Part shown: positions 1-16,506 of the stretch, piece after piece
Layout of the letters: every line of letters begins with the position of its first letter
Numbering within the stretch: position 1 is the stretch's first letter
IMG/VR virus record: IMGVR_UViG_3300042554_001444
Origin: an uncultured virus (IMG/VR IMGVR_UViG_3300042554_001444)
Taxonomy: Duplodnaviria; Heunggongvirae; Uroviricota; Caudoviricetes
Reading direction: 5' to 3' (one strand)
DNA length: 64,000 nucleotides
Notes under the pieces: model-generated
Databases searched by the model: none
What the model was told of the DNA's origin: nothing
The model's input: only the letters and a program-made list of their open reading frames with translations
Translations under genes and position numbers: made by a program

Positions 1-1
1 C

Positions 2-1120
2 ACCCGCAGTGGTTCCACGTTGAAGGTGTACATCAACGGCACGGACACAGCCTACAGCGACACCGGAAGTGGATCTTGGTCCGACACTGTAACCAGTACG
101 TTTTTGAACGTCGGAGTCTTTGATGCGAGTGATCTTTTCGTTGGCCGCATCTACCGCGCCGTCGTTTTCAACCGCGCACTGTCCGCAACCGATGTCACCG
201 AGCTTATCACCACCGGCGTGAATCCGGCGGATCAGTGGGGGACGCAGACGGCACTTGTCAGCGGCTCGACGCTGAACGGAGATTTCGAAACTTGGACAGT
301 CGATGGAGTTGCTGGTGTCAGCAACGGAACCGCGACGAGTTGGTCTATTACGTCGGTTGGGGCTGGTAATACTGGCACAAAGAACAGTGTAGCCCCTATT
401 AGTGGAACATTTGATGCACTATTAACCATGGGTGCAACTAGCGGATTAGTGGCCGCCAACGCGTCATCAGTAACGATTCCGCTTGGGAAAAGGGTCAGGG
501 CGGCCATTTCAGCAAAACGACTCAGTGGAGTCGGAGCACTTCAGCTTGTCAACGGGACATCAAACACAGTTGTTAAGAGCATTTCGTTGACGACTGGTTC
601 CACAGTAACCGATTCCACGGAATACGTTTGCGATGGGCCTCGTCCGTATTGGTTGCTGTCAACTACCAACACCGTAGTCCAAATCGACAACGCTATCGTT
701 GAGCGCATCGGCGCAATCGTAGACCTCGACTTTACTGTCGGCACCGGCTACCAAGCCACCGACCGCAGCACCAACAACCTGCACGGCACGCTCTTCAATG
801 GCGTTGAGTTCACGCAACCGAGGCGCATGGCGGTGCTGTACGCGACGACCACCGCTTCTGGCAACACTCAACTCCTCGGTACGCTGGCCATCCCGACCAA
901 TGCAGTCATCGAGGACGTAGTCGTCAACTCAAGCGGATCGGCTACCGTCTCAGTTGGCAATGCTTCCGCCGGCACCCAGATCGTCAATGGCGCATCGGTT
1001 GTCTCTGGCCGACAGAAGCTCACCATCGCCACTCCGTTCAGCACCACCGGCAATCTGTGGGTGGCCAGTTCCGCAGCCGTGACACTCCAATTCACCATCT
1101 TCTACACCATCGCCGCCTAA
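2..1120 (+). CDS. LamG/concanavalin-like virion fibre protein, 3' part (allele A; 5' part is 37179-37639 if circular)
   Basis: KVYING and GRIYRAVVFNRALS LamG motifs, then an NGDFE-type carbohydrate-binding-like domain; paralog of 37179-38741. Confidence 0.8.
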   Translation, partial: TRSGSTLKVYINGTDTAYSDTGSGSWSDTVTSTFLNVGVFDASDLFVGRIYRAVVFNRALSATDVTELITTGVNPADQWGTQTALVSGSTLNGDFETWTVDGVAGVSNGTATSWSITSVGAGNTGTKNSVAPISGTFDALLTMGATSGLVAANASSVTIPLGKRVRAAISAKRLSGVGALQLVNGTSNTVVKSISLTTGSTVTDSTEYVCDGPRPYWLLSTTNTVVQIDNAIVERIGAIVDLDFTVGTGYQATDRSTNNLHGTLFNGVEFTQPRRMAVLYATTTASGNTQLLGTLAIPTNAVIEDVVVNSSGSATVSVGNASAGTQIVNGASVVSGRQKLTIATPFSTTGNLWVASSAAVTLQFTIFYTIAA

Positions 1121-1123
1121 GTT

Positions 1124-1354
1124 ATGGACAAAGAAATTACACTGGAAACAGCTCCACTCGAAATCATCACCTTCGATCCTCCGATCAAGGTTTCGGAGGA
1201 CAAGATCGTCGGTGGCACCGTAGTCACCTCAGCGGAAATTGAGCCTACCGATGCGTCCGGTATGGTCATCGCACGGATCTTGCCCATCGGATTCGTCATG
1301 GGATTCCCGTTCATTGACTCCAACGAAAACAGCATCAGGGTTGCCCTGAGCTGA
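1124..1354 (+). CDS. 76-aa protein linked to the LamG gene (possible fibre chaperone)
   Basis: Near-identical paralog at 38745-38975 with conserved frame. Confidence 0.75.
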   Translation: MDKEITLETAPLEIITFDPPIKVSEDKIVGGTVVTSAEIEPTDASGMVIARILPIGFVMGFPFIDSNENSIRVALS

Positions 1355-1364
1355 TCGTCACGCC

Positions 1365-1538
1365 ATGACAAACCACCACGAAATCCGGGACGGATCAATC
1401 GGCATCGGGTCCGGGCTTACCTCCGCGATCATGGGCATTTTGAGACCCCTTGGTGACGTGGCGTCATCCATCGGTTCAATTGTGACTTGCATCATCGCTT
1501 GTGTGATGCTCTACAGACTGCTGCGAAAGAAAGACTGA
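1365..1538 (+). CDS. 57-aa membrane protein (holin-associated)
   Basis: Not in ORF track; MTNHHEIRDG...IVTCIIACVMLYRLLRKKD, hydrophobic segment with basic tail. Confidence 0.6.
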   Translation: MTNHHEIRDGSIGIGSGLTSAIMGILRPLGDVASSIGSIVTCIIACVMLYRLLRKKD

Positions 1539-1542
1539 CCCC

Positions 1543-1752
1543 ATGAACATCAAAACCACCCTCGCCGGAATCGGCTCTATCCTTGTCGCCGTTGGTTTCG
1601 CTTTGAAGGCGATCTTCGACGGTGACCCTACCACCAACGTGGACATTGGCGCGACCATTGCCCAGATCACAGTGGGCGTGGGCCTCATCATGGCCAAGGA
1701 CGCCAAGCCGACCGGACCGAAACTGCCCGAGCCCACTGAGCCCAAAGCGTGA
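1543..1752 (+). CDS. Putative holin
   Basis: 69 aa, two hydrophobic segments, charged C-terminus, upstream of the spanin-like pair. Confidence 0.65.
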   Translation: MNIKTTLAGIGSILVAVGFALKAIFDGDPTTNVDIGATIAQITVGVGLIMAKDAKPTGPKLPEPTEPKA

Positions 1753-1922
1753 ACTGGATCGAACAGATTATCACCGCCCTGCTGAAGTTCCTCCGCGACC
1801 TAGCCCGTGAACCAAACACCCTCGACAACGCGCAAACTCCTCCAGAGGTTCGCCGTGGTTGGGATGCTTGGATTCGTGGCCGGTTGCGGGACAAGGGCGG
1901 TGATGATCGACCCCAGGGCTGA
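1749..1922 (+). CDS. Putative i-spanin-like partner (57 aa)
   Basis: GTG start overlaps holin stop; MNWIEQIITALLKFLRD; overlaps the lipoprotein ORF; homolog at 39398-39568. Confidence 0.55.
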   Translation: MNWIEQIITALLKFLRDLAREPNTLDNAQTPPEVRRGWDAWIRGRLRDKGGDDRPQG

Positions 1923-2058
1923 CGTGGTCCGCCTTGGGCCGGGAGTGCGTGGGCCGGTTTACGTCTTCGTTGACGGCCGGTGGACGCTGACCCGGAAAGT
2001 CACTTTGCCCGAAGGCTGGTTCGCCGGTCCCGGGCCTCAACCCGAAAACAAACCCTGA
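1807..2058 (+). CDS. Putative o-spanin lipoprotein (start uncertain)
   Basis: Hydrophobic signal with lipobox FVAG-C; homologous to 39477-39692 (VTLPEGWFA vs VKIPAGWYA). Confidence 0.65.
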   Translation: MNQTPSTTRKLLQRFAVVGMLGFVAGCGTRAVMIDPRADVVRLGPGVRGPVYVFVDGRWTLTRKVTLPEGWFAGPGPQPENKP

Positions 2059-2067
2059 AAGAAACCC

Positions 2068-2448
2068 ATGACTGACAGCATGGCCACATTGACGGGCGGC
2101 AAACAGATTGTCGCCTACCACCTCGACGGAACCCAGGAGATCGTGACCCTGCGGCAACTGCCCGTTCGAGCCCTGCCGCAATACCTCGCCACCATCGACG
2201 ACGAGGCCGCCCGACTGGAACTGCTGGCCGACAAGCCGGCGGGATGGGCGGACAAGATCAAGCCCGACTCGCACGTCGAGCTTCTGGAGGCCGGGGAGGG
2301 CCTCAACTCAGATTCTTTTTTCGCGTGGCTCCGTCGCAGAGTGCAACGACAGGAGCAACTGGTGCCGGGCTCAAGCGGAGAGTTGGGCAAGCAAATGCTG
2401 TCAGCCTCGCCGACTGGGTCGCAGAGTGCGCGGTCCGCTGTGGTTTGA
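2068..2448 (+). CDS. Tail assembly chaperone (G-like)
   Basis: Position upstream of the tape measure; overlapped by a -1-frame ORF. Confidence 0.7.
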   Translation: MTDSMATLTGGKQIVAYHLDGTQEIVTLRQLPVRALPQYLATIDDEAARLELLADKPAGWADKIKPDSHVELLEAGEGLNSDSFFAWLRRRVQRQEQLVPGSSGELGKQMLSASPTGSQSARSAVV

Positions 2449-2645
2449 CGCTCGCCCAAGCGGCAGATCACAGTCCGGCCCAGCTTCGACTTTTAGCCGC
2501 CGCGGCTTCGCGCATTGACGCGGGTACCGGGCTGTTGAATCTGCACACAACCTACGCGGCAACGGCCGCAACGGTTGCCAAGGAAGGGCGGACCGTGTTG
2601 GAACGCCTCCAAAAGCAACTGACAAAACAAGCGAAAGGCGGCTGA
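2244..2645 (+). CDS. Tail assembly chaperone T-like segment, probably reached by -1 frameshift
   Basis: Open -1 frame ending 1 nt before the TMP start; no convincing start of its own. Confidence 0.55.
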   Translation: MGGQDQARLARRASGGRGGPQLRFFFRVAPSQSATTGATGAGLKRRVGQANAVSLADWVAECAVRCGLTLAQAADHSPAQLRLLAAAASRIDAGTGLLNLHTTYAATAATVAKEGRTVLERLQKQLTKQAKGG

Positions 2646-2646
2646 C

Positions 2647-5442
2647 ATGGCAGACACGAATCTACGGATCAAAATTGGGATGCAGGGGTCCGCGGACGTC
2701 AACGCGGGCCTCCGGGCCATCGGGACGGCCGCTTCGAGCCTGAAGGCAACGCTGGTCGGCATTGCCGCGTCCGTGGGCGGTCTGGTCAGCCTCGGGGCCG
2801 CGATCCAGCAGTCTGTCAAATTCAACGCCGAATTGGAGCAACAGGGCGTCGCCTTCAAGACCCTTCTGGGTAACGCCGAGGCCGCGAGTCGCCGCATGGC
2901 CGAGTTGGCCCGGTTCGCCGCAGAAACTCCGTTTGAGCTTCCCGAGATCGTCCAGGCGTCCAAGGTTCTCCAGAGCCTGACCAACGGAGCGCTGGCCTCC
3001 GGTGAAGGACTCCGCCTTGTCGGTGACGCCGCTGCCGCGACGGGGCGACCGCTGGAGGAAGCCGCCATGTGGATCGGCCGCTTGTACGCCGGACTCCAGT
3101 CGGGGACGCCCGTGGGCGAGGCTACGCTCCGGTTGCTGGAAATGGGTCTGATCTCAGGCACGACCGCGCGGAGGCTCAACGACCTAGCCGAGTCTGGTCA
3201 GGGTGCCGGTGAAGCAATGACGATCCTGCGGGACACGTTCGGCCGCCTCGGTGGCGCAATGGCTGACCAGTCGCAGACGTTCAGCGGTCTACTTTCCACG
3301 CTCAAGGACACGTTCAACATGGCCCTGGCCGACATCGGCAAGCCGTTGTTCGACGGACTCAAGCAGGGCCTTGAAGAACTCATTCCGGTCGTCGAAGGCC
3401 TCGGGGAGAAAATCTCCGCGTGGGTCTCGATTGCGATCCAGTCGTTCCGCGACGGCCGCCTTTCCGAGTTCATCGGACTCAACATCGAAGCCGGGTTCGA
3501 GATTGGAGTCGGTGCTGCCGTCAAGGTGATGGAAAAACTGTTCGATTGGCTTGGTTCTCCCGAAATGTGGCGGGTCATCGGCAACGGATTGCTGACCGCG
3601 ATCAACGAGGCAATGAAGCTGGCCGGGGCCGCCATGGTTGACTTTTTGTTGGTTCCGTTGGGGTCAATCGCTTCTTACATTGGCAGCGCTTTTTCCTATG
3701 CTTTTGAGGGGGCTGTCAATTTCTTCGCCGGACTCCTTGAAGACGTCATCAACGGGGCGTCTGAAATGCTTGGAAGCTTGATTGGAAAGCAACTCGGAAC
3801 GGTATCGCTACGGAGCGAACGTGTCTTTGCCGAGCCGGACTTCATGCGGTCTTTCGGTGAAAACCAAGAAGGCGGTCAGGTTCTCAAGGAAGTGCTAACC
3901 AAGTTCTTTGACGAATCCACGGCCGCGGGTCGGGAACTGATGGGCGTCGGTGCCGGTCTCTCGATTGGAACCAGCGCATTGGATTCTCTGACGAAACTCA
4001 TCGCCCAGACGATTGCGGCATCAAAGGCCGCAAAGAGTGCTGGAGCCGGTGCGGGTGGAAAAACGACTGAGGAAGAAATTACGCTGATCAACGTAAAGTT
4101 GGAACTTCAGAAGCTCGAACTCGCCTACAACCGGCAGTTGCAGCAAATCAACCAAGCTCGCGGCGCTGTTGAATCGAGTTGGCTGATGACCAACTTGGAG
4201 AAATACCAAGAGAAGAAGCGACTGTTGCAGGGGGAGATTGACCTCATTGGCCGGCAAATCACCGCACTCGAAAAGCTCAAGGCTACCGCGACCGAGGCCG
4301 AGCAGGTGCAGATCGAGCAACGAGTGGTCGGCCTCCAAGGCACAGCGGGAGGAGTCCGAAACCAGATGACTGGCATGGGGCCGGATCCTCAGTCGATGGG
4401 GGAAAACTTTCAGGCCACGCTCATCAATCTTCAAAACCAGTTTGGGACCGTCGCGCAGCAAATGGCAGCGACCTTTGCCGACGTGTTCAACGCTGCGACT
4501 GCATCCATCTCGACGGGAATTCAGGGGTTGATTATGGGGACGATGACATGGGGGCAAGCGCTGCAAAACATCGGTCTTTCCATCGTCAACTCAATCGTCA
4601 AATCGTTCGCTGACATGGTTGCCGGTTGGATCATGTCCCACGTCATCATGAAAGGCGTTTCGACCGCTTGGTCCGGATTCCAGACGATGCTCCGCGGCAA
4701 GGATGTGGCCGAAGCAAACGCCACGGAATTGGCAAAGACCCCGGCATTGGCCGCAAACGCAACGCTTGCGTCGATTGGGTCTTTTGGTGTGGCCGCGGTG
4801 ATTGGAATCGCTGCAATCGCCGGAATTTTAGCGATGGTTGGCGGGTTCAAACAGGGCGGCTACACGGGAGACGGCAACCCCAACGACGTGGCCGGCATCG
4901 TTCACCGTGGTGAATTTGTTGTCCCAGCCAACGCTGTGGACAAAATCGGGTTGCCCGCTTTGCAGTCCATAACGTCCAAGGGGATGGTTGCTGAGACTCA
5001 GGGACTTGATTTAGCTCAATCACTCTCTGCGTTTCAGTTGGGAGGTTACACTGGAGATGAAAATACCAACGACCTCGCAAACGTGGATCGCATCGGACTG
5101 TCCAGCCTCAATGTCCTGACAATGGTTGGCGGGTTCAAACAAGGCGGCTACACGGGCGACGGCAACCCGAACGACATGGCTGGTATCGTTCACCGAGGCG
5201 AGTATGTGGTCCCTGCCGACGCTGTGGATCGCATCGGACTGTCCAGCCTCAACGCGATGGCTTCCGGTGGCGTATCTGATGCCGGTGCCTTCACGTCGCC
5301 GGCCGCCCCGGGTCCGATCACCCTCAATATGGGGGTCTTCGATAACCCTGCCCGGCTTAACGATTGGGCGAAATCGAACGAGGGCCGAACGGTTCTGGTG
5401 GACATTATGCGGCAACACGCTCACGAGTTCTCCCGCGCATGA
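2647..5442 (+). CDS. Tape measure protein
   Basis: 931 aa, Ala/Gly-rich helical; LARFAAETPF N-terminal motif; C-terminal GGYTG...AGIVHRGE motifs. Confidence 0.92.
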   Translation: MADTNLRIKIGMQGSADVNAGLRAIGTAASSLKATLVGIAASVGGLVSLGAAIQQSVKFNAELEQQGVAFKTLLGNAEAASRRMAELARFAAETPFELPEIVQASKVLQSLTNGALASGEGLRLVGDAAAATGRPLEEAAMWIGRLYAGLQSGTPVGEATLRLLEMGLISGTTARRLNDLAESGQGAGEAMTILRDTFGRLGGAMADQSQTFSGLLSTLKDTFNMALADIGKPLFDGLKQGLEELIPVVEGLGEKISAWVSIAIQSFRDGRLSEFIGLNIEAGFEIGVGAAVKVMEKLFDWLGSPEMWRVIGNGLLTAINEAMKLAGAAMVDFLLVPLGSIASYIGSAFSYAFEGAVNFFAGLLEDVINGASEMLGSLIGKQLGTVSLRSERVFAEPDFMRSFGENQEGGQVLKEVLTKFFDESTAAGRELMGVGAGLSIGTSALDSLTKLIAQTIAASKAAKSAGAGAGGKTTEEEITLINVKLELQKLELAYNRQLQQINQARGAVESSWLMTNLEKYQEKKRLLQGEIDLIGRQITALEKLKATATEAEQVQIEQRVVGLQGTAGGVRNQMTGMGPDPQSMGENFQATLINLQNQFGTVAQQMAATFADVFNAATASISTGIQGLIMGTMTWGQALQNIGLSIVNSIVKSFADMVAGWIMSHVIMKGVSTAWSGFQTMLRGKDVAEANATELAKTPALAANATLASIGSFGVAAVIGIAAIAGILAMVGGFKQGGYTGDGNPNDVAGIVHRGEFVVPANAVDKIGLPALQSITSKGMVAETQGLDLAQSLSAFQLGGYTGDENTNDLANVDRIGLSSLNVLTMVGGFKQGGYTGDGNPNDMAGIVHRGEYVVPADAVDRIGLSSLNAMASGGVSDAGAFTSPAAPGPITLNMGVFDNPARLNDWAKSNEGRTVLVDIMRQHAHEFSRA

Positions 5443-7463
5443 TTTCGACAACCTTTGACGGTCAGTCGGTTCTATTGCTGAACGACGCCCCGGACTGGGG
5501 ATCGCCAATCGGGGCGACCTTTGACTTGGTGAGCCAGTTCGAGGAGGGCCTGACTGGCCGGGAAGCTCGACGTCCCCACGCTGCAACCCTGAGGGCAAAG
5601 GTGCGGTTCCGGCTGACAATCCAAGGGACAGACGGCTTCACGCTCAAAAACGCGCTACGGGGCTACCAAGCGCAGCCAATCATTCTTCCGTTCTGGCCGT
5701 TGGCAGAGACATGGGCCAACCGGGCCAACATCGCCGCAACGGGGCTCAAGGTCGCTTACAGGGCCGACTGGTCCACTTGGGAGCTTTACACGACGGTAGA
5801 GCCCGGTTGGGTGTCGGCTGGCGACATGGTTGCCCCAGCATTCTGGGGTCGCTTGGAAGACCGGGAAATGCTCTGGCTCAACGCCACCGTTGCCCAGTTT
5901 GACGTTCAATTCACGGAGACCGGGCCGACCACCTACGCACTGATTCCGACCAGCCAAGTCTTCCAGCCGGGGCCGGGACTTGGCGGATACCCGACCAACC
6001 CGCGCCGCTGGCCAACCGCGTTGGATTGGCGCGAAGTTCCCGAATCGTTTTCCGTCCGAATCATCCGGGAGCAACTGGGTTTTGGCCGGGCACCGTTCGA
6101 GACGATCTACCCTCAGGCGAGCGTCCGAGAAAACCAGTTCAGAACGCTCACTGAGTCATCCGCTGAATGCTGGCGGTTGTTGCGGTTCTTTGCTGACCAC
6201 GGAGCCGGGCGAGCGTTCTGGTCTCCAACATGGCATTCCTGCGCCGTCATGGCCGCCGACCTCGGTGCTGGGTCTTCCGCGCTGTCGGTGCAATCCGCTG
6301 TTGGGATTCAAGCGGGCGATTACCTTGCTTTTGTTCAGGGGACCGGGATCCAAGCAACCTCTCGGGTGTCAACCGTCGTCGGCAACACGGTCAACCTGAA
6401 CAGCAGCCCGGGAGCTTTTGCGGCTTCGGAAACGGTTGTTTCCACGTTGGTCCTTGCCCGGTTCGACAAGCCGCGCATCGGTCTGGAGTTCATCGCAGGC
6501 AGCGTTGCCCAAGGTGCCGTTTCCGTCGTCGAGCTTCCGCCGGAATACTCACCCGCCGCGGACGAGACCCTCGGGACAACCATCGGGCTACTGACCACCC
6601 GTGGCTACATTTACGAGCTTGCCCAGACGATCAAAGGCACAACAACGACGACTTGGCTGACCAGCTACGAGGCCGACTTGACGGTCGGAGCAAACACTTA
6701 CACCGCCCGAAAGATGGACCACGGGACGGTCAAGCAGTCGCTTTTTCTCGACCGAGACGAAATCGAAATCAGGTCCGAAATCGTGGCCGGGGATCCGTTG
6801 GTCAAACTCGCAACCGTCCAGGCCGAAGCTCCGGTCCGGTTGACGATCAAATCGGTGGACGTGTCCGGGACAGCCGGATCAAACGACACCGTGCTTTTCA
6901 CCGGGGACATCATCGGGCTGGCCGTTCGTGGATCACGACTGACCGCAAAGGCCGTGTCCGCGGGGACGGTGTTCGATAGGATTTATCCGCGTTTTCGGAT
7001 GCAGGTCGGATGCAATCACGCGCTGTTCTCGCCCGGGTGCGGTCTGGCCAGCGCTGCGTGGCAATTCACCGCGACCTTAAGCAACCCGGGGACCATCGGC
7101 TTCCCGTTCACCTTTGACCTGACCGGGCTGGGCCGAACCATCGGAAGCGTTCCGACGATCACCGCAGGCTGGTTTTCGGGTGGCTGGGTCGAATTCTTAT
7201 CGGGAGCAAATCTCAGTCGTCGGGCGATCATCGACAACACCGCCGCGGTCTCCGGTGCGCTGACGATCACACTGGCCCGAGATCCGAGCCCGTTTCCGCC
7301 GCCATTCTCCGCCGTGAAACTTTTTCCGGGATGCAACGGAGCAAGGACAACGTGCGTGGACAAGTTCGCCAACTTCCCCAACTTCGGAGGCCATCCATTT
7401 ATGCCGGCAACCAATCCGTCACTGGTCAAGGTTTCGCAGAACATCGGAGGAGGCAAGAAATGA
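5439..7463 (+). CDS. Distal-tail/hub protein with BR0599-like C-terminus (GTA-type tail tip)
   Basis: ATG overlaps TMP stop; CNHALFSPGC and PGCNG..TC..KF.N..NFGGHPFMP motifs. Confidence 0.8.
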   Translation: MISTTFDGQSVLLLNDAPDWGSPIGATFDLVSQFEEGLTGREARRPHAATLRAKVRFRLTIQGTDGFTLKNALRGYQAQPIILPFWPLAETWANRANIAATGLKVAYRADWSTWELYTTVEPGWVSAGDMVAPAFWGRLEDREMLWLNATVAQFDVQFTETGPTTYALIPTSQVFQPGPGLGGYPTNPRRWPTALDWREVPESFSVRIIREQLGFGRAPFETIYPQASVRENQFRTLTESSAECWRLLRFFADHGAGRAFWSPTWHSCAVMAADLGAGSSALSVQSAVGIQAGDYLAFVQGTGIQATSRVSTVVGNTVNLNSSPGAFAASETVVSTLVLARFDKPRIGLEFIAGSVAQGAVSVVELPPEYSPAADETLGTTIGLLTTRGYIYELAQTIKGTTTTTWLTSYEADLTVGANTYTARKMDHGTVKQSLFLDRDEIEIRSEIVAGDPLVKLATVQAEAPVRLTIKSVDVSGTAGSNDTVLFTGDIIGLAVRGSRLTAKAVSAGTVFDRIYPRFRMQVGCNHALFSPGCGLASAAWQFTATLSNPGTIGFPFTFDLTGLGRTIGSVPTITAGWFSGGWVEFLSGANLSRRAIIDNTAAVSGALTITLARDPSPFPPPFSAVKLFPGCNGARTTCVDKFANFPNFGGHPFMPATNPSLVKVSQNIGGGKK

Positions 7464-7912
7464 CACCATCATGGTTCACTGAGGAGCGCATCGAGGCGCT
7501 CGAAGCCGAGGCCGCCACTTGGGTGGGGACGCCGTTTGCGGCCAACTCATCCGCCAAAGGGCTCGGGGTCTCTTGCCATACCCTCGCAGGAGCACTTTAC
7601 GCCGCCGTTGGGTGGGGCGACATTGCCATCCCGGAGGTGCCAATCTCCCACGGGCGCTTTGGGGAGGATTCACTCGCCAACCCATTCTTTGAGGCAATGG
7701 CCGAACGGTTCACCGAGCTTCCGCACAACGCCGAGATCCTGCCCGGGGACGTGTTGGGATTCAGGATCGGGCGCATCGTCCATCACCTCGGGACGGCGCT
7801 CCGCAACGGCCGGTTCATCCACTCGCTTGAGGGGATCGGGACCACCGTGTCCACCATCGAAGACGCAACCTACCGTTCGAGGCTTACAATTATCTGGAGG
7901 CCGACGCCGTGA
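7460..7912 (+). CDS. NlpC/P60 family tail-associated peptidase
   Basis: WVGTPF, GVSC, PGDVLGF, HHLG and FIHS motifs; canonical position. Confidence 0.85.
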   Translation: MTPSWFTEERIEALEAEAATWVGTPFAANSSAKGLGVSCHTLAGALYAAVGWGDIAIPEVPISHGRFGEDSLANPFFEAMAERFTELPHNAEILPGDVLGFRIGRIVHHLGTALRNGRFIHSLEGIGTTVSTIEDATYRSRLTIIWRPTP

Positions 7913-8106
7913 AAGGTGAGTCGCGCAACCAACCGGACCCCGAGATCAACGACGGCAACACCGAGCCCGAGGACTTCTCGACCAACCAAGAGTCGGCCTC
8001 GATTCCGTGGTTCTGTGGTGAGCGCAAACTCGCCCTCCGGTGGATCTCACCGATTTACAACCAGTTCACGAAGGAGGCTCCCCAAGAGCGTCCCGGCAAG
8101 AAATAG
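7909..8106 (+). CDS. Small tail-tip protein (resembles the N-terminus of central-fibre proteins)
   Basis: IPWFCGER motif; in frame with the next ORF across a single TAG. Confidence 0.6.
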   Translation: MKGESRNQPDPEINDGNTEPEDFSTNQESASIPWFCGERKLALRWISPIYNQFTKEAPQERPGKK

Positions 8107-8115
8107 GACAAGACC

Positions 8116-11040
8116 ATGGGAAAAGGTGGAGGAGCAGGAAGCAAACTTTACGACTACTACGGCACCCTCGCGGGCGTGGTTTGCGCGGGGCCGGTGGACG
8201 AGCTTGTCGCCATCATTGTGGACGGCCGTACAGTTTGGCCAACCGCGACAGCGTGGGCCGTTGGGCAGACTGTTGCGCTCAACGACCTGCGGCAATCGTT
8301 TGGCGTCGTTTGGAAAGCCACTCAGGCCCACACAACGAGCAACGGCAACAAGCCGCCAGCGTCAACTCATTGGGTCCGCTATTCGTTGGTCCGAACCGTG
8401 GGACCGAGCGCAACGAATCCCTATCCGCTGACCGTGACCGGCTACGGGGCCGCGTATTTTTACTGGGGCACCGACGATCAAGTTCTCGACACCGTAGGAG
8501 AAGCCCGCCTTGCAGCAAACGGGCACCCGCCCTACCGCCGGCAAGCCGTTCTCGTTCTCAAGGACTTCCTTTTCGGCCGGGAGCGCACATCCGCGCCCAA
8601 CGTCGAGGTCGTCGTTCGCAGGAAGCCAAACCAGACGATGCTGACCGGAGATCCGGCCGCGTTGATTGACGGACAAGCCAATCCGGTGGCCGCCATGGCC
8701 GACCTTTACACTGACCCGGTATTCGGGGCCGCGCTGACGCCCGACACCCCGGGAGGACCGGACACCACGACGTGGCAGTCTGCCGCCAACGCGATCCAAA
8801 CCAGCATTGACGAAACCGGCATCTCGCCCGTTCTGACTCAGGCAAAGAGCCTCCGCCAGATCACCGCCGACTTGCTTGCCTATTGCGATGGATGGGTCCG
8901 GTTCTCGGCGGCCGGTGAGATCGAAGCCGGGCGGTTTCCACACAACGCAGCGCCGCCGACGTTCACCGACGCCACAACCATCGACTACCACGATCTCATC
9001 GACGAGGTGAGCTACACGGCCGACGGGTGGGCAACGACTTACAACCAGACCCAAGTCAAATTCAACGACCGTGAGCGCTCCTACCGGGATGGATCGGTCG
9101 CCGTGGTGAGTGGCTACAATCTCACCGTGACTGGGGAACCCCGCACCGCAAAGATTGATCGCCCGTGGATCACTCGCCGCGCTCAAGCATCCGAACACGC
9201 GGCCGAATACCAGAAGATCGTCGGTGAGCCCAAGCTTGCCGGATCGCTGGTCGTCCGCGCTGAAAAGGCCGCGAGCATTCGCCCCGGGAACCTATTCCTG
9301 CTGACCCACGACGCACTTTCGATCTCCGTTGTCTGCAGGTGCATTGGGAAAGACATCGCGCAACCGCCCGCAGGCCGCGCCACAATCCGCTTCGAGAGTG
9401 ACCGCGCATCCGCCCCGGTTCCGTTCGCTCCGACGGGAGCCGCTGACGAGGGGAGCGCCTACCCGGACAACGAAACGCTGTCGATCCAGCAGTTTTTTCA
9501 ACCGCCTCCGACAATGTTTGAGGGGGACACGGACGCCGCCGTTGTCCCGTTGATCGCCCGAACATCGCCGGTAACAACCTCGGCAAACGTGTGGCTTCGG
9601 AAGGACGACGCCTCAGGGTTTTACGGGCTCGGATCCATCGACCAGTTTTCAATTCACGGCACCATCCAAGCCTCTTGGTCGTACTACAGCCGGGCGACAT
9701 CAACCCGGAGCCGATCCACCAACGTGGCCACAATTGTGACCTCGGCCGCACACAATCTGGCAACCGGGGACGTGGTGACCATCTACGGGTTTGCGGACGC
9801 GACCTTCGACGGTGTTTTCACGGTGACTGTGGTCAACTCGACGACGTTCACCTACCCGAACACGGGATCGTTTGTTTCGACGACCACCGACACGGCTGGA
9901 ACCGTGACCACCGGCAACGAGGACAACACCGAAAACCTTCGGGTCACGCTCGACGCGGGCACGGTCGGTGCAGACTTGTCCAAAATGCTGGACACCCAGA
10001 CCGAGGACGCGATCAACGACAACGCGGTCTACGTCGTAATCTTCCAGGACTCCGACCGAAAAGTCTTCGAGGTTTGCACCCTGCGTGCCATGCGGATCAT
10101 CTCTGGGGATTCGTTTTATCGGCTCAAGGTCCGCCGCGCTCGGTACGGAACCGAAACAAGGACGGCCGCCATCGGTGACAAGGTTTGGATCGGCTACCGG
10201 ACCGACATTGCACCGATGACCCACAATTCCTTCGTAGCCTATCTGGAGGGGCTTTCGACCGCTACTTTCCGACTTCAGTCCGCGAACTCCGAGTCGGTGG
10301 CCGACCTGTCAAACACCACGCTTTGCCCAAACATTTCCTACACTTTTGCCGATCCCTACGCTCCGACGACAACCTTCACTTCGGTTCAAAGGCTGACCAA
10401 TGTCACGGCAAACACGTGGACCGAGATCACAGACTTTACGGGTCACTTTGAGGTGACGGACCGCTTCCGCGTTGAAGCCAGTCTTGTCGATTCATCTGGG
10501 GACCTGACCGCGGCGCGACTGTACGCCAAAAACGGATCTTCCGAACTGACTCTGTGGTCTGCCAGTTACACGGAATCATCGACTCAAAAAATCACAGCCG
10601 AGTTCACCATTCCTACCAAGGGGGCATGGCAGGTCTTCATGGCCGGCATCGACAAGTCGGGACGAATTCGAATCAAACAACTCACTGCCGGGGGCGGGTC
10701 TGCATCGGTCACCATCAACATCAAGCCGAACAACACTGAGACATCCGCGCCGAGTTTCACTCCTCCAGGCATCGGTTTTCGGGCGAATCAATTCCCCATT
10801 ACCGTAACGCTCAAGACGACGACGGCAGGGGCTCAAATCAAGTATTCCATCGTGGACCTTGGTCAGCCAGCCGGCACCTTCACGAACGTGGCAGCAACCA
10901 CCGCGACGGTCGTTGTCGGGCGCAACAAGCGTCTCTGGGCCAAGGCCGACGTTGGTGGAGCCAACGAGTCAATCTTGCTTTTGCACGAGTATTACATCGA
11001 GATCGACGACTACTATCCGCCGCGCGGCTCATTGCCATGA
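8116..11040 (+). CDS. Tail tip/central fibre (J/megatron-like)
   Basis: 974 aa; GKGGG, CAGPVD, PPYR, PNVEVVVRR, ANPV and VRRARYGT motifs; Thr-rich beta domains. Confidence 0.85.
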   Translation: MGKGGGAGSKLYDYYGTLAGVVCAGPVDELVAIIVDGRTVWPTATAWAVGQTVALNDLRQSFGVVWKATQAHTTSNGNKPPASTHWVRYSLVRTVGPSATNPYPLTVTGYGAAYFYWGTDDQVLDTVGEARLAANGHPPYRRQAVLVLKDFLFGRERTSAPNVEVVVRRKPNQTMLTGDPAALIDGQANPVAAMADLYTDPVFGAALTPDTPGGPDTTTWQSAANAIQTSIDETGISPVLTQAKSLRQITADLLAYCDGWVRFSAAGEIEAGRFPHNAAPPTFTDATTIDYHDLIDEVSYTADGWATTYNQTQVKFNDRERSYRDGSVAVVSGYNLTVTGEPRTAKIDRPWITRRAQASEHAAEYQKIVGEPKLAGSLVVRAEKAASIRPGNLFLLTHDALSISVVCRCIGKDIAQPPAGRATIRFESDRASAPVPFAPTGAADEGSAYPDNETLSIQQFFQPPPTMFEGDTDAAVVPLIARTSPVTTSANVWLRKDDASGFYGLGSIDQFSIHGTIQASWSYYSRATSTRSRSTNVATIVTSAAHNLATGDVVTIYGFADATFDGVFTVTVVNSTTFTYPNTGSFVSTTTDTAGTVTTGNEDNTENLRVTLDAGTVGADLSKMLDTQTEDAINDNAVYVVIFQDSDRKVFEVCTLRAMRIISGDSFYRLKVRRARYGTETRTAAIGDKVWIGYRTDIAPMTHNSFVAYLEGLSTATFRLQSANSESVADLSNTTLCPNISYTFADPYAPTTTFTSVQRLTNVTANTWTEITDFTGHFEVTDRFRVEASLVDSSGDLTAARLYAKNGSSELTLWSASYTESSTQKITAEFTIPTKGAWQVFMAGIDKSGRIRIKQLTAGGGSASVTINIKPNNTETSAPSFTPPGIGFRANQFPITVTLKTTTAGAQIKYSIVDLGQPAGTFTNVAATTATVVVGRNKRLWAKADVGGANESILLLHEYYIEIDDYYPPRGSLP

Positions 11041-11048
11041 AATAGGTC

Positions 11049-11077
11049 TGGACAGAAACCCAACGTTGGGTTTAGGT
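11049..11077 (+). promoter_or_regulatory. Putative promoter with palindromic operator AAACCCAACGTTGGGTTT (11056-11073)
   Basis: TGGACA -35-like hexamer; perfect 18-bp palindrome; second copy at 16071-16088. Confidence 0.7.
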
Positions 11078-11085
11078 GGGGCCGC

Positions 11086-11229
11086 GTGAAGTGCCCCGTC
11101 TGCAATTCAATTTTTGCTGCAAGCCTTGCCGAGTTCGGCAGGGAGATGGGGCGCAGCATGTCGAAATCAAAGGCCGATGCCGCCCGCCGCAACGGCAAAA
11201 AAGGTGGCCGGCCGAGAAAGAAAAAATGA
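11086..11229 (+). CDS. 47-aa basic DNA-binding-like protein (CxxC + NGKKGGRP)
   Basis: Not in ORF track; MKCPVCNSIF...KADAARRNGKKGGRPRKKK; ATGA overlap with next gene. Confidence 0.7.
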   Translation: MKCPVCNSIFAASLAEFGREMGRSMSKSKADAARRNGKKGGRPRKKK

Positions 11230-12269
11230 CTGAGAACAATGACCTAGAAATCGTGGCACCTGACGCCATTGGTTCAATCGAACGCGCCCAGATCGACGTT
11301 CAAATCTCAACCGCTCGGAAGTACCCGCGCACCCTTAGCAAAGTCAAAGAGCGGATGCTCTCGTTTGCCACGCTCGACGAGGAAACCGCATCGTCATGCT
11401 TTTACACGCTGCCCGCCCGCCGGGGTGGGGACGACAAGCCGATCCAAGGACCGAGCGTCCGCATGGCCGAGATCGCTCTGGCCAGTTACCAACACGTCAA
11501 AGCGGGCTCCCGCATCATCGCCGACGATGGCAAGTTCCTGACCGCTCAGGCCGTGGTCCACGATCTCGAAAACAATGTGGCGGTCTCCATCGAGGTCCGC
11601 CGCCGGGTGACCAGCAAAAGCGGGGCCCGGTATTCTGACGACATGATTGCAGTCACCGGCAACGCCGCTTGCTCAATCGCCCTCCGAAACGCCGTGTTCC
11701 GGGTCGTGCCCCGGGCGCTTATCACCCCGGTCTACGAAGCAGCCAAGCGGGTGGCAGTTGGGGACGTCAAATCGCTGACCAGTAAGCGGGCCCAGATCAT
11801 CGCGCGGCTGAAGCAGATGGGGGCCAAAGACGCGAACATCCTTGCCGCCGTTGGAGCCGACAAAATCGAAGACATCGACCTCGCCAAGCTCGAGGTGCTG
11901 ATCGGCCTCGGGACTGCGATCAAGGACGGGGAGACCACGCTTGAGAACGCTTTCCCGGGCGCATCACCAAAGGAGGAAGGCAAGCCGATCTTCAAGGAGG
12001 AGACAAAAGCCGTGGAGCCTGTGCCTACCGCGCCCGCTACGCCGGAGCCTACCAACAGCACCACAGAGCCCGAAAAGACGCCTCAGGACCGTCTGGCCGC
12101 ATTGGTCACCGATGCTGGCTTCAGCTTGGATCTGTTCAACAAGTGGGCCGTGCCCGACTTCATCCAGCAGGAGGCCGCGACATGGGCCGACGTGCCCGAG
12201 CAGTTCGCCACCCGTTGCCTGAAGGGTTCCAAAGGCCTTATCACCCAACTGAAGGGGGTGGCACAGTGA
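11226..12269 (+). CDS. Conserved phage protein, probable ssDNA-annealing/recombination protein
   Basis: IDVQISTARKYPR and GPSVRMAE motifs; recombination-module context. Confidence 0.55.
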   Translation: MTENNDLEIVAPDAIGSIERAQIDVQISTARKYPRTLSKVKERMLSFATLDEETASSCFYTLPARRGGDDKPIQGPSVRMAEIALASYQHVKAGSRIIADDGKFLTAQAVVHDLENNVAVSIEVRRRVTSKSGARYSDDMIAVTGNAACSIALRNAVFRVVPRALITPVYEAAKRVAVGDVKSLTSKRAQIIARLKQMGAKDANILAAVGADKIEDIDLAKLEVLIGLGTAIKDGETTLENAFPGASPKEEGKPIFKEETKAVEPVPTAPATPEPTNSTTEPEKTPQDRLAALVTDAGFSLDLFNKWAVPDFIQQEAATWADVPEQFATRCLKGSKGLITQLKGVAQ

Positions 12270-13033
12270 ACCCGCTCGCCCTCCGCAACGTCGGGTCCGT
12301 CGAAATTGCAATCAACCCGGGCGCAATCGAAACCCGGGACGAAGCAATCAACACCGCGGGCCTCATCATCAACGTCCGCAATCAAGGCCAGTTTGCCGCA
12401 GGGGCCGATGCGCTCAAAGGACTCAAGATCGTCTCGAAGGCGGTCGAAATGTCCCGCACTGCCGCCAAGGCTCCGGTGCTGGAGCTTGGAAAACGGATCG
12501 ACGGAGCCGCCAAGGACTTTCTTGCCGAGGTGGACACCGAAATCCTTCGACTGACCGCGCTGCTGACATCCTACGAGGTAGAGCAACGCCGGATCGCTGC
12601 CGAGGCAGAACGCCAGCGCCAGGAGAAAGAACGCCGCCGACAAGCCGAGGAGGCTGCCCGAATGGCTGAAATCACACGCCAGCAGCAAGCCGCAGCACGG
12701 GCCGAGCTTCTCGCAAACACTGAACGCGAGCGGGCCGCAGCCGAAGCCCGACGCATCGCCGCAGAATCAGCCGCAGCAATCGAACGAGCCGCCGCGGCAG
12801 AAAGACAAGCCAACCTTCCGGCAGTCGTCGAACCGCCGAAGGTCGCCGGAACCGTGGTCCGCGAGGACTGGACTTTTGAGGTTCTCGACCTCCGAGCATT
12901 CGCCCAGGCCCACCCGGACCTTGTCGAGATCACCGTCCGCCGGGCTGACGTGCTAAAGATGATCCGAGGTGGCTGCCGGCAGTTGGCCCACGCTCGCATC
13001 TACACCGAGACAAAAGTGGGGGTGCGCGTATGA
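12266..13033 (+). CDS. Coiled-coil phage protein (Gam/Gp157-like)
   Basis: Long E/R/A coiled coil; C-terminal WTFEVLDL...IRGG. Confidence 0.55.
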   Translation: MNPLALRNVGSVEIAINPGAIETRDEAINTAGLIINVRNQGQFAAGADALKGLKIVSKAVEMSRTAAKAPVLELGKRIDGAAKDFLAEVDTEILRLTALLTSYEVEQRRIAAEAERQRQEKERRRQAEEAARMAEITRQQQAAARAELLANTERERAAAEARRIAAESAAAIERAAAAERQANLPAVVEPPKVAGTVVREDWTFEVLDLRAFAQAHPDLVEITVRRADVLKMIRGGCRQLAHARIYTETKVGVRV

Positions 13034-13302
13034 GCGCAATCAACGACGGCGGGTCCGCATTCCCGACGACCGCAACCGCAACAACTGTTTCAAAACAGAA
13101 CGACGGCGATTCGGTGCTGACAAACTACGGCAGCAGTCCAGGCATGACCCTCCGCGTTTGGCTGGCCGGCAAGGCGTTGCAGGGCTGGGCCGCTGGGCGC
13201 AACCACTCAATGACCGAGGCGTCCGACCACGACACTGTCGCCAAGGCTTGCTTGCAGTACGCCGACGCAATCATCCGTGCTGCTAAGGAGGAATCGAAAT
13301 GA
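13030..13302 (+). CDS. Small phage protein, DGGxAFP...GMTLR...ADA family
   Basis: Paralog of 17446-17667. Confidence 0.75.
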   Translation: MSAINDGGSAFPTTATATTVSKQNDGDSVLTNYGSSPGMTLRVWLAGKALQGWAAGRNHSMTEASDHDTVAKACLQYADAIIRAAKEESK

Positions 13303-13688
13303 GCGAAGACATCAACCGCATCGAGGAACTTGCCGCGCTCATCCAAGCCGAGGTTCCGCGCCTCATCGGGGAGGCTACCGACGCAATCAACGAGTCAATC
13401 AACGTGGCGCTGGAGGAAGCCCAGGAGACCGAATCCGACGCCCCGGCCAAACTCCGGCTCGCGATCACCGCAACGTGGAATCTCGACACCAACACCGTCG
13501 AGGTCTCCATGCCGGTGGCAGTGAAGCGCAAATTCACCCGGACGGTAAAGCTGCCGGATCACAACCAGAAGGACTTGCCGTTTATCGTTACGGAGGAAGA
13601 TCGAGAAACCATGGTTGCTCGACTCAAGGCTCAAGGTTTGACCGTCCATGAAAACGTCAAGCTCACCACGGGAGGCATCAATGAGTGA
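13299..13688 (+). CDS. Hypothetical protein
   Basis: ATGA-coupled ORF preceded by GGAGG. Confidence 0.7.
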   Translation: MSEDINRIEELAALIQAEVPRLIGEATDAINESINVALEEAQETESDAPAKLRLAITATWNLDTNTVEVSMPVAVKRKFTRTVKLPDHNQKDLPFIVTEEDRETMVARLKAQGLTVHENVKLTTGGINE

Positions 13689-14769
13689 CGAACGCCGCGG
13701 GCTTCCATCCGCATCATCGGCGCAACGCTATGCACTGTGCCCAGGCTCGTTCCTGCTTGAGCAATCCATCACGACGCCAGAGGTAACCAGCGACGACGCC
13801 AGCATGGGAAACCGGATCCACGGTTACCTTGCCGGGGACAAAATCACACTCACCGAGGATGAGCAGATGATCGCCGATCAATGTCGTCGTCAGCAGATCG
13901 AGCTTGAGGACAGCCTGATTCCCGTTCAACCCCACACAGCCGTTGAACGCCGGCTTTGGCACTACGACGACAACCTCGAGCCTCGATGGTCCGGGAAGCC
14001 AGATCGGGTCAGTTGGTGGGGCATTGGGGCCGTTGTCATCGACTACAAGACCGGCCGCGGCGAGGTCGAACACGCTGCCGGCAACATCCAACTCCGGGCA
14101 CTGGCCGTGCTCGCAGACCAGCACCATGGGCCATTCCAAAAGATTACGGTCGCCATCGTTCAACCGCTTGCCGGTGAGCCCACGGTCTGCACCTACGCCG
14201 ATGACGACATCTCAAAAGCATACGATGAGGTGAACGACCTCATGGAGTTGGTTCAGACGCCGGGACAACCGCGCAACCCATCAACCGAGGCTTGCAAATA
14301 CTGCAAGGCCAAGGAGGTCTGCCCGGAGGCCCGCGGGGTGGTTCAGAAACTGCCCGCGCTCGTTCCTCGGGACGGGCTCGAGATCGTCATGACTCCCGAG
14401 CAGATCGCCGAGTTCCTCGAGAAGGCACCGCTGGCCGAGGCTGTGATCGAAGCCGTCCGGGGCAAGGCTCGCCGAATGATCGAGTCCAAGCAGGAAATCC
14501 CGGGTTGGAGACTCAAGCCGGGCGCCATCCGCGAAAGCATCACCAACCCGGAACTAGCTTTCGCCCGGTTCTTAGACGCGGGCGGGACTCAAGCCCAGTT
14601 CGTTGGAGCCATCACCGTGGCCAAGACCAAGTTCAAGGACGCGGTCAAGGCGGCCACAGGACGAAAGGGCAAAGACCTCGACGGGTTCGTTGAGATCATG
14701 CTCGACGGCTGCACCGAGGCCAAGGCCACCGCCCCGTCGCTTGTCCAGGACAAGGAGGTGGCAAAGTGA
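13681..14769 (+). CDS. PD-(D/E)XK Cas4-like exonuclease (DUF2800-like)
   Basis: SASS...CPGS, GNRIH, GKPD, IDYKTG, QL, CKYC...C motifs. Confidence 0.88.
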   Translation: MSDERRGLPSASSAQRYALCPGSFLLEQSITTPEVTSDDASMGNRIHGYLAGDKITLTEDEQMIADQCRRQQIELEDSLIPVQPHTAVERRLWHYDDNLEPRWSGKPDRVSWWGIGAVVIDYKTGRGEVEHAAGNIQLRALAVLADQHHGPFQKITVAIVQPLAGEPTVCTYADDDISKAYDEVNDLMELVQTPGQPRNPSTEACKYCKAKEVCPEARGVVQKLPALVPRDGLEIVMTPEQIAEFLEKAPLAEAVIEAVRGKARRMIESKQEIPGWRLKPGAIRESITNPELAFARFLDAGGTQAQFVGAITVAKTKFKDAVKAATGRKGKDLDGFVEIMLDGCTEAKATAPSLVQDKEVAK

Positions 14770-15218
14770 ACCCCATCATGGAACCGGAGGACGCCCACCC
14801 GATGGAGTTCGTCCGGGAGTTTATGTTTCGATTCCAGCAAGCTGTTCCTCCGACCGTCGGAATGCCAGACCCGGAGACCCACAACCTCCGGTGGAGGCTA
14901 ATCGACGAGGAAGCCCAGGAACTGCGGGACGCGACCAGCTTGGTGCAATATCTCGATGCCGTCGGGGACTTGCTCTACGTGGTCTACGGGGCCGCCATAG
15001 CCGCGGGATTCACCGCCCACCAAATCGAGGCCGCAGTCTACGAGATCCACCGGAGCAATCTGTCAAAGCTTTGGAGCGCCGACGAGATCTTCAGCATTCC
15101 GGCAGATTGCCGAGCCAGCCACGTCGGGGACGGGCGCTACATCGTCCGACGCAACGACGGCAAGGTCATCAAGAGCCCGACCTACTCGCCGGCAAACCTT
15201 CAAGCCATCATCCAATGA
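14766..15218 (+). CDS. MazG-like/PRA-PH NTP pyrophosphohydrolase
   Basis: LIDEEAQEL, DAVGDLLYVVYG, IHRSNLSK and DGKVIK motifs. Confidence 0.88.
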   Translation: MNPIMEPEDAHPMEFVREFMFRFQQAVPPTVGMPDPETHNLRWRLIDEEAQELRDATSLVQYLDAVGDLLYVVYGAAIAAGFTAHQIEAAVYEIHRSNLSKLWSADEIFSIPADCRASHVGDGRYIVRRNDGKVIKSPTYSPANLQAIIQ

Positions 15219-15547
15219 GAGGCCTTCAATCCTTCGGCTTCGGCCGCATTCACACCGCCGCCGAGATCCACACCAACGACGACGGCAACAAGTTCCTCCA
15301 GATGGTCGTCGAGTTCGAGGACCGGCTTCTCCAGAAGTCCGGCAAGCTCTACCAGCAAAGAGTCTTGTTCCGTTCCTTCGATGTGCTGGACCAAGACCGA
15401 TGCAACGAGCTCACAGAAGACCGCTACGTCATCATTGACGGGCTTGTCGATGCGGTCGCTGAAAAGAGCCCAACAGGCTGGTGGTACGCCAACCCTCGGG
15501 TCACCGGCCGGATCCACCAAATCCTAGACACCGACCAACATGGCTGA
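15215..15547 (+). CDS. OB-fold/SSB-like protein
   Basis: GRI...EI, then beta strands and YVIIDGLV; true start inside track ORF 14603-15547. Confidence 0.5.
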   Translation: MRGLQSFGFGRIHTAAEIHTNDDGNKFLQMVVEFEDRLLQKSGKLYQQRVLFRSFDVLDQDRCNELTEDRYVIIDGLVDAVAEKSPTGWWYANPRVTGRIHQILDTDQHG

Positions 15548-16010: not shown

Positions 16011-16063
16011 TTCACCACAGGGGCCGCGCATCTGACCAACGCGAAAAAAAATTAAAAAATGTT

Positions 16064-16092
16064 TTGCAATGAACCCAGCGTTGGGTTTTACT
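16064..16092 (+). promoter_or_regulatory. Putative promoter with second operator copy GAACCCAGCGTTGGGTTT (16071-16088)
   Basis: TTGCAA -35, A-rich UP-like tract upstream, same register as 11049-11077. Confidence 0.7.
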
Positions 16093-16133
16093 CATCACAT
16101 CGAAGGCAACGAAGCCTGAGAGAAACGAAACGA

Positions 16134-16469: not shown

Positions 16470-16506
16470 ATTTCTCGAAGAATAAACAAATCATCAACAA
16501 CACAAA

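What the first reader, a model, noticed from the sequence alone, without database searches (positions are those of the whole stretch)
251..682. Siphovirus and podovirus share one fibre gene with an exchangeable central binding domain
Seen: the two LamG genes are nearly identical on both sides of a block that is replaced in frame, 251-682 (144 aa) vs 37890-38303 (138 aa). The block is bounded by DQWGTQT and IDNxxxERIG. Both inserts begin TLNGxFET, typical of carbohydrate-binding-module-like jelly rolls, but otherwise share little, and both look AT-richer than the flanks. Inference: a receptor- or glycan-binding slot swapped by recombination in the conserved flanks, drawn from a pool shared by morphologically unrelated phages, probably of the same host.
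Basis: partly seen in the sequence, partly recalled or inferred. Interest (0 to 1): 0.75.

Follow-up and report, generated by a model that had tools for sequence, protein, structure and literature searches.

The report
Shared phage fibre with swappable domains
Two unrelated lake phages, wrongly joined into one contig by the assembler, carry the same fibre gene, whose two predicted sugar-binding domains appear in many mix-and-match combinations across at least seven phage lineages, likely letting them trade host-recognition parts.

Summary
The replaced block is real (251-682 vs 37890-38303, in frame), but the contig is an assembly chimera. Siphovirus A (1-37639, a circle) is joined to podovirus-like B through 425 nt of LamG coding DNA that both share (37342-37766). 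Depth there is 139x, against 62x for A and about 85x for B. ORF 37179-38741 is therefore a hybrid; B's true gene lies in a separate record. Both inserts are predicted CBM-like jelly rolls; B's is nested inside the LamG/pentraxin domain. Among 117 homologues the insert falls into 13 classes while the C-terminus stays about 84% identical. A second slot, the LamG body, swaps independently, and it is the most recent A-B exchange. Near-identical inserts or LamG bodies occur in phages with unrelated capsids; only the N-terminal anchor tracks the backbone. In relatives of A and B the same gene slot holds other payloads, including S74-chaperone tail fibres. Best reading: a host-recognition fibre shuffled by homologous recombination in conserved boxes. 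Binding, host and position on the virion are untested. It works like known receptor-binding-protein mosaicism; the nested two-slot form is a new variant.

The parts
1..37639 (+). Phage A, siphovirus-like, a complete circle opened inside the fibre gene
   Evidence: Tape measure, tail tube, lambda-like terminase/portal, ClpP and MCP hits; relatives L094 and L132 run from the 37011 equivalent through the slot to the 1367 equivalent
1..127 (+). Assembly overlap, identical to 37640-37766
   Evidence: First mismatch at 128
128..250 (+). A: end of LamG body and conserved box 2 (LamG helix, ends DQWGTQT)
   Evidence: 110 of 123 nt identical to 37767-37889; nearly invariant columns
251..682 (+). A: exchangeable CBM-like insert (domain closes at about 703)
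   Evidence: AF2 plus VIA Z 12.1, rmsd 2.9, 134 aligned to 2w5f; 48x unitig in X1; 532-nt piece with 13 other letters and 4 gaps in X8
683..1120 (+). A: conserved box 3 (last CBM strand, closing LamG segment) and about 100-aa C-terminal beta domain
   Evidence: 390 of 438 nt identical to B; 32 synonymous vs 9 non-synonymous codon changes
1124..1354 (+). A: 76-aa gene that travels with this payload, likely its chaperone or cap
   Evidence: 87% identical to B's copy; 34 distinct copies found behind the gene in related loci
37179..37341 (+). A: start of the fibre gene, backbone-specific N-terminal anchor
   Evidence: 62.5x unitig 35500-37371; same start in relative L009
37342..37766 (+). 425-nt LamG-body segment shared by A and B; the point where the assembler joined them
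   Evidence: One unitig, no other letters, 138.8x, about A plus B; L002 differs from the window at 37341 and upstream of 37331
37767..37889 (+). B: end of LamG body and conserved box 2
37890..38303 (+). B: exchangeable CBM-like insert, nested in the LamG domain
   Evidence: VIA Z 14.5, rmsd 2.2, 131 aligned to 8xmz; LamG matches span the insert; 95% nt identical insert in siphovirus L003
38304..38741 (+). B: conserved box 3 and C-terminal domain
38745..38975 (+). B: 76-aa partner gene; the shared cassette ends at 38976
37331..64000 (.). Phage B, podovirus-like, partial here (whole genome 46,893 nt; 8,307 nt with capsid gene and B's anchor are missing from this contig)
   Evidence: L002 and L051; no tape-measure or tube hit among the B proteins scanned

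Best explanation
The gene occurs in unrelated freshwater phages as mix-and-match combinations of an anchor, a LamG body and a predicted carbohydrate-binding insert, and likely encodes a host-recognition fibre whose parts are swapped by homologous recombination in conserved boxes. Shown: a backbone-specific N-terminal anchor is followed by a variable LamG body, a conserved box of about 105 nt, a variable insert, then a conserved 3' part plus a 76-aa gene; LamG body and insert assort independently and cross capsid lineages at up to 99-100% nucleotide identity; the whole distal part is one of many payloads at this gene slot. Predicted: the insert is a CBM-like jelly roll plugged into a loop of the LamG/pentraxin domain, so it can be replaced without breaking the fold, and the boxes are conserved because they encode LamG core elements. 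Inferred: co-infecting phages of a shared host group (likely Verrucomicrobia) recombine in these boxes, probably through phage single-strand annealing proteins such as B's RecT; new LamG-by-insert pairs would change which surface glycan is bound.
For: Independent assortment: median identity insert 0.25, C-terminus 0.84, Spearman 0.04 (117 proteins); LamG body 0.50, box 3 0.92, Spearman LamG vs insert 0.06 (110 proteins). 18 of 18 LamG clusters (90%) with two or more members pair with two or more insert classes. 23 of 518 cross-backbone pairs among 36 distinct loci share one slot at 85% nt or more (11 insert, 12 LamG), none both: B-L003 insert 0.95, B-L004 LamG 0.98, L026 with L015's LamG 0.99 and L007's insert 0.97, L022-L064 insert 0.99. 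L005 and L007 are 97% identical upstream and 95% in LamG but have unrelated inserts. Nearest neighbour has the same backbone for the anchor in 24 of 34 loci (shuffled 6.5), LamG 8, C-terminus 9, insert 12. Fibre slot: 0 of 17 A-type and 1 of 35 B-type loci with a complete slot, picked by capsid gene, carry this payload; 9 of 25 other payloads scanned hit Peptidase_S74 and 1 a pectate-lyase-like domain; an S74 payload is 91.8% identical over 874 nt between A-type L122 and B-type L185. B's shaft segment matches cyanopodovirus tail fibres (58.8% over 51 aa). Folds. RecT plus exonuclease in B.
Against: No binding data; a jelly-roll fold does not show glycan binding, and neither window insert reaches the Pfam CBM_4_9 cut-off. 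The gene follows the major capsid gene in most backbones, which fits a head fibre. The insert still weakly tracks backbone (12 of 34, p 0.046), and only one long-insert pair crosses the sipho/podo line at high identity (B-L003); the other four such pairs carry the short insert. The protein set is dereplicated at 90%, which inflates discordant pairs. Exact matches of 26-115 nt in the boxes could mis-join single records. No annealing protein was identified in A. The host rests on one MAG contig. Model A is of modest quality (mean pLDDT 70).
Confidence: 0.72

Rival explanations
1. The exchange is real, but the protein is an accessory capsid-mounted adhesin (head fibre) for reversible attachment, and swapping does not decide host range.
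For: The gene lies just after the major capsid gene in B, the L004, L005, L026 and L030 types. One anchor type is used by both siphoviruses and podovirus-like phages. One variant C-terminal domain has a weak hit to phrog_486, head and packaging, E 0.004. Accessory CBMs on lactococcal virions bind hosts (PMC6669499 abstract).
Against: In A the slot lies among tail genes. Alternative payloads at the slot are S74-chaperone fibres and a tailspike-like protein; 16 of 30 distinct payloads scanned hit tail families.
Confidence: 0.17
2. The combinations are mostly assembly mis-joins at the conserved boxes, as happened in this contig.
For: This contig is a chimera. Boxes share exact runs of up to 115 nt. 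L170 also has a B-type capsid followed by siphovirus tail genes.
Against: A and B share at most 56 exact nt in the 3' flank and 37 nt in box 2, and depths assign each insert to its phage. 14 combinations recur letter for letter in two to five records (some may be one data set filed twice). Cross-backbone partners differ by 1-15%, so they are distinct molecules.
Confidence: 0.05
3. The whole gene moved between phages once, and the insert then diverged fast under diversifying selection, with no domain swapping.
For: The long inserts are all distant homologues, and A-B flanks differ mostly at synonymous sites.
Against: Inserts 95-99% identical sit beside unrelated LamG bodies and the reverse; a 56-aa insert occupies the same slot; borders coincide across alleles.
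Confidence: 0.06

Closest known systems
Tailspike anchor/receptor-binding-domain exchange across E. coli phage genera (Pas et al. 2023, PMC10408124; passages read)
   Same: Genus-specific N-terminal anchor, exchangeable distal part, short conserved DNA motifs proposed as recombination hotspots across genera.
   Different: There the whole C-terminal domain is swapped and the motifs are 63-81% identical. Here two internal slots swap separately inside one payload, boxes are mostly 80-97% identical, and one slot is nested in the other domain.
Streptococcus thermophilus Tal VR1/VR2 and CBM insertions in 'evolved' Dit/Tal (PMC7533335 passages; PMC6669499 abstract)
   Same: CBM inserted into a structural virion protein; islands of variable sequence in an otherwise conserved gene, linked to host specificity.
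   Different: Those are Dit/Tal/neck proteins of related siphoviruses of Gram-positive hosts. Here the host domain is itself a variable lectin-like LamG and carriers span sipho- and podovirus-like lineages.
Alteromonas fibre-plus-chaperone module shared by schito-, myo- and other phages (PMC10579305; abstract and passages)
   Same: Fibre and cognate small downstream gene shared across morphotypes; a central region between conserved flanks varies by insertion.
   Different: The authors suppose those transfers took place long ago; here sharing reaches 425 nt of identity in co-occurring phages. No sequence match to that module was tested.
Klebsiella RBP atlas (bioRxiv 10.64898/2026.05.12.724579; passages)
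   Same: Multi-scale modularity, recent cross-morphotype exchange, hotspots of about 30 aa.
   Different: Hotspots there are mostly N-terminal; 'LamG' and 'insertion' do not occur in its main text. Its supplementary files could not be read.
T-even distal fibre/adhesin shuffling (Tetart 1998, title only in a reference list) and coliphage tail-fibre sharing (Haggard-Ljungquist 1992, recalled)
   Same: Recombination between conserved motifs swaps specificity segments.
   Different: Different protein families; not tested here.

Membership tests
Modular phage receptor-binding protein (anchor plus exchangeable distal part) | N-terminal anchor conserved within a phage lineage | tested here: met
   24 of 34 nearest neighbours share backbone, shuffled 6.5; anchors kept while payloads change
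Modular phage receptor-binding protein (anchor plus exchangeable distal part) | Distal part shared across unrelated lineages at high identity | tested here: met
   23 of 518 cross-backbone pairs; L122-L185
Modular phage receptor-binding protein (anchor plus exchangeable distal part) | Present on the virion and binds the host surface | not testable with these tools
   No isolate, proteome or binding data
Tail fibre | Homotrimeric fibre attached to the tail | not tested
Tail fibre | Cognate downstream chaperone gene | tested here: inconclusive
   A 76-aa gene co-travels with this payload and other payloads have their own small genes; no family or PDB match
Pfam CBM_4_9 (PF02018) | Score at or above the gathering cut-off 25.9 | tested here: not met
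   A insert no hit, B insert 19.7-19.9 bits; 14 of 26 inserts hit at E <= 0.1 and 2 of 26 pass the cut-off
CBM-like galactose-binding jelly roll (CBM4/16/22/61 type fold) | Beta-sandwich of about 130-150 residues superposing on solved CBMs | tested here: met
   B Z 14.5, rmsd 2.2, 131 aligned (8xmz); A Z 12.1, rmsd 2.9, 134 aligned (2w5f); several CBM families tie
CBM-like galactose-binding jelly roll (CBM4/16/22/61 type fold) | Carbohydrate binding | not testable with these tools
   Needs glycan array or cell binding
LamG/pentraxin (PF13385) | Profile or fold match | tested here: met
   VIA Z 17.9, rmsd 3.0, 187 aligned to PAPP-A LamG over residues 88-452; many homologues pass the Pfam cut-off; the window's own proteins do not
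Diversity-generating retroelement or invertible shufflon | Reverse transcriptase with template repeat, or invertase with inverted alternative cassettes | tested here: not met
   No such hit among 61 proteins scanned; the self-comparison of the 75,916-nt contig shows no template repeat or silent cassette
Podovirus morphotype (phage B) | No tape measure or tail tube; portal, nozzle and ejection-type genes | tested here: inconclusive
   No tape-measure or tube hit; portal candidate near clusters where 19% carry SU10_portal; nozzle candidate only weakly linked; no micrograph

The most novel reading that the evidence does not exclude
A community-wide, standardised two-slot glycan-sensor cassette: at least seven unrelated sipho- and podovirus-like lineages preying on the same lake bacteria draw from one pool of LamG bodies and nested CBM plugs, and the LamG-by-CBM pair acts as a combinatorial code for host strain that is switching now, even within one phage population (A's insert is at 48x against 62x for its backbone, with other inserts at 11-12x in the same run).
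Probability: 0.3. Interest if true: 0.7.

Novelty: new variant of a known kind. Interest (0 to 1): 0.47.

Why it matters
It is a natural library of dozens of binding domains in a constant scaffold with sharp borders, which makes 'which domain sets host range' directly testable for phages of uncultured lake bacteria. It shows exchange between morphologically different phages recent enough to leave 425 identical nucleotides. It is also a warning: such shared fibre segments make assemblers fuse unrelated phage genomes into one contig.

Tried and rejected
A real A-B fusion genome or prophage-in-phage: rejected, because depth doubles only on the shared segment and B exists alone as a circle. Two paralogues in one phage: rejected for the same reasons. 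Circular permutation of LamG (my first idea): replaced by nested insertion, since matches to LamG/pentraxin structures run from 85-88 to 441-452 across the insert. Search for A's insert in viral contigs found nothing; the closest relatives are 53-58% identical. No carrier of the gene in GTDB genomes. No family for the C-terminal domain or the 76-aa protein; that domain was not folded alone, so its fold is open. Foldseek on the whole B protein gave only generic multi-domain beta-sandwich hits with TM <= 0.25 in the PDB and mostly unnamed or LamG-labelled phage proteins. B portal and capsid had no PDB or GenBank phage match. Run X2 laid nothing. Paper searches for this family found no description; the library lacks most subscription journals.

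Full report
Observation. The window holds two ungapped matches, 1-250 to 37640-37889 (94.8%) and 683-1355 to 38304-38976 (88.6%), with 432 and 414 nt between them, both in frame. The blocks are AT-richer, most clearly at third codon positions (GC3 0.47 and 0.41 against 0.66-0.79). They are distant homologues: 25% identity, score 40 against -12 +/- 13 in 500 shuffles.

The contig is a chimera. It is 75,916 nt. Positions 1-37639 carry a full siphovirus gene set. The first 127 nt repeat 37640-37766 exactly; I read this as a k-mer overlap (inference). L002 and L051 match the window from 37331 on at 99.99% and hold 8,307 nt the contig lacks, including a capsid-like gene and a different 5' end of the fibre gene. 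They may come from the same water body, so they are separate assemblies, not necessarily separate populations. In run X1, which may be the source sample, depth is 62.5x upstream, 138.8x on one unitig 37342-37766 with no other letters, and 84-86x on B's insert and 3' part; a loose end at 37331 is B's own upstream sequence. The window and L002 differ at 37341, so the shared tract is 425 nt. Relatives of A run from the 37011 equivalent to the 1367 equivalent, which closes A's circle. So A and B are separate phages, ORF 37179-38741 is a hybrid, and the most recent A-B exchange is the LamG body. Unitigs drop rare variants, so 'identical' means at consensus level.

Anatomy. The AF2 model of B's protein (P0003, mean pLDDT 78) has a LamG/pentraxin domain whose structural matches span residues 85-452 (PAPP-A, Z 17.9, rmsd 3.0, 187 aligned) and a CBM-like domain at 272-422 (8xmz, Z 14.5, rmsd 2.2, 131 aligned). 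The CBM is thus nested in the LamG domain; the closing LamG segment has low confidence at 431-458. A's insert also matches CBMs (2w5f, Z 12.1, rmsd 2.9, 134 aligned; many ties). Neither reaches the Pfam CBM_4_9 cut-off; 14 of 26 inserts hit it weakly and 2 pass. The 100-aa C-terminal domain and the 76-aa next gene have no family.

Diversity. The protein search gave 290 hits, 120 listed. Of 122 stored proteins 119 parsed; I dropped P0002 (hybrid) and P0074 (copy of P0001). The 117 inserts form 55, 20, 13 and 7 clusters at 90, 70, 50 and 40% identity, one of them a 56-aa form (13 proteins). Median identity is 0.25 for inserts and 0.84 for the 3' part; rank correlation 0.04. For 110 proteins with a parsed LamG body (6 missed), that body is also variable (median 0.50) and uncorrelated with the insert (0.06); 174 of 316 pairs with LamG >= 90% have inserts < 40%, and 82 of 157 pairs with inserts >= 90% have LamG < 70%. 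Dereplication at 90% inflates such discordant pairs. Run X1 alone holds at least four inserts at this slot, and X8, from another study, holds A's insert with 13 other letters and 4 gaps in 532 nt.

Carriers. Three locus searches (8, 43 and 43 loci) gave 87 loci after removing duplicates of place; 72 have a full insert and 53 could be typed by capsid or tail markers. Seven backbones emerged: two siphovirus types with tape-measure genes (A; L004 type with ClpP-capsid fusion) and five podovirus-like types (B, L005, L026 with SU10-type capsid, L030, L033). Podovirus status of B and the L005 and L033 types is inferred from gene content. Among 36 distinct typed loci, 23 of 518 cross-backbone pairs share one slot at >= 85% nt and none shares both; unrelated DNA scores about 0.60 here. 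B's insert is 95% identical to that of siphovirus L003 while their LamG bodies are unrelated; B's LamG is 98% identical to that of siphovirus L004, which has the short insert. Only one long-insert pair crosses the sipho/podo line at this level. The anchor tracks backbone (24 of 34 nearest neighbours, shuffled 6.5); LamG (8) and C-terminus (9) do not; the insert does weakly (12, p 0.046). Insert GC3 is below C-terminal GC3 in 36 of 36 loci (medians 0.43 and 0.79), and LamG bodies are low too (0.48); core genes of A and B are 0.62-0.85. Whether this reflects a donor pool or relaxed codon bias is unexplained.

The slot is a fibre locus. Picking relatives by capsid gene (56 and 39 loci), 0 of 17 A-type and 1 of 35 B-type loci with a complete slot carry this payload, the one being B itself; other A- and B-type carriers came (L063, L087, L052, L064). 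The anchors stay and the rest changes, each payload with its own small downstream gene. 9 of 25 payloads scanned have an S74 chaperone domain, 16 of 30 hit tail families, and one S74 payload is 91.8% identical over 874 nt between an A-type and a B-type phage. This supports a receptor-binding role, but the gene follows the capsid gene in most backbones, so a head fibre is not excluded.

Mechanism. Shown: modular assortment with fixed borders. Predicted: nesting lets the CBM be replaced without disturbing LamG, and the flanking boxes encode LamG core elements. Inferred: homologous recombination in the boxes during co-infection. B encodes a RecT-like protein and an exonuclease; Rad52-like phage recombinases tolerate divergent substrates (PMC3945230, abstract only). 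No such protein was identified in A. Host: one A-type capsid gene (59%) lies on a contig of a Verrucomicrobiia MAG beside genes that look bacterial, a weak lead.

Artefact check. Exact matches between boxes of loci with different inserts are 26-115 nt, so single records could be mis-joined. But A and B share at most 56 exact nt beside the insert, 14 combinations recur in several records, and cross-backbone partners are similar, not identical.

Comparison and verdict. It works like known RBP mosaicism: anchor and payload exchange at conserved motifs (PMC10408124, passages), CBM insertions and VR1/VR2 islands in streptococcal and lactococcal phages (PMC7533335, passages; PMC6669499, abstract), fibre-plus-chaperone sharing across morphotypes (PMC10579305, abstract and passages) and Klebsiella RBP modularity (bioRxiv 2026.05.12.724579, passages; supplements closed). 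Searches found no description of this family. What differs is two adjacent, independently swapped lectin-like slots, one nested in the other, across seven backbones, with very recent tracts. New variant of a known kind; interest 0.47.

Noticed in passing
window 37331-37766 and contig ends: The 75.9-kb contig is two phage genomes fused by the assembler; other first-stage findings that span this joint should be treated with care.
   Followed up: yes
window 221-1114 (run X1): A's insert and 3' part are at 47-48x against 60-62x for the A backbone, and two other inserts are at 12.5x and 11.2x: phage A's population may be polymorphic at the slot.
   Followed up: partly
L170, downstream of the slot gene at 8455-9603: A B-type capsid gene is followed by genes like the siphovirus tail genes of L004; probably another mis-join at a shared fibre/chaperone segment, or a real hybrid. 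L164's contig (92.5 kb) may be a similar fusion.
   Followed up: no
window 56086-64000 (to 65682 in the contig): 3,198-aa probable internal virion protein of B with a helicase-like (DarB-like, recalled label) domain at about residues 830-1065.
   Followed up: no
window 27753-31058: Four genes between portal and protease of A (fibre-like repeats, Kelch-like hits) are absent at that place in relatives L009, L094 and L132: a second variable appendage module.
   Followed up: partly
L004:10580-10747: The 56-aa insert shares the KRYRI motif with the long inserts and is far more conserved (88-100% among copies); it may be a truncated CBM or a separate mini-domain.
   Followed up: partly
P0017, P0029, P0032, L082, L084: The C-terminal domain is itself sometimes replaced behind box 3, in P0017 by a further fibre-like segment: a fourth exchange point.
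   Followed up: partly
window 12437-18606 vs contig 67950-69707: A and B also share patches of early-region DNA (about 70% over 200 nt; exact 24-30-nt repeats at gene borders), consistent with further gene flow between them.
   Followed up: no
window 4834-5252: Internal repeat in A's tape-measure gene (107 nt at 88%, 29 nt exact).
   Followed up: no
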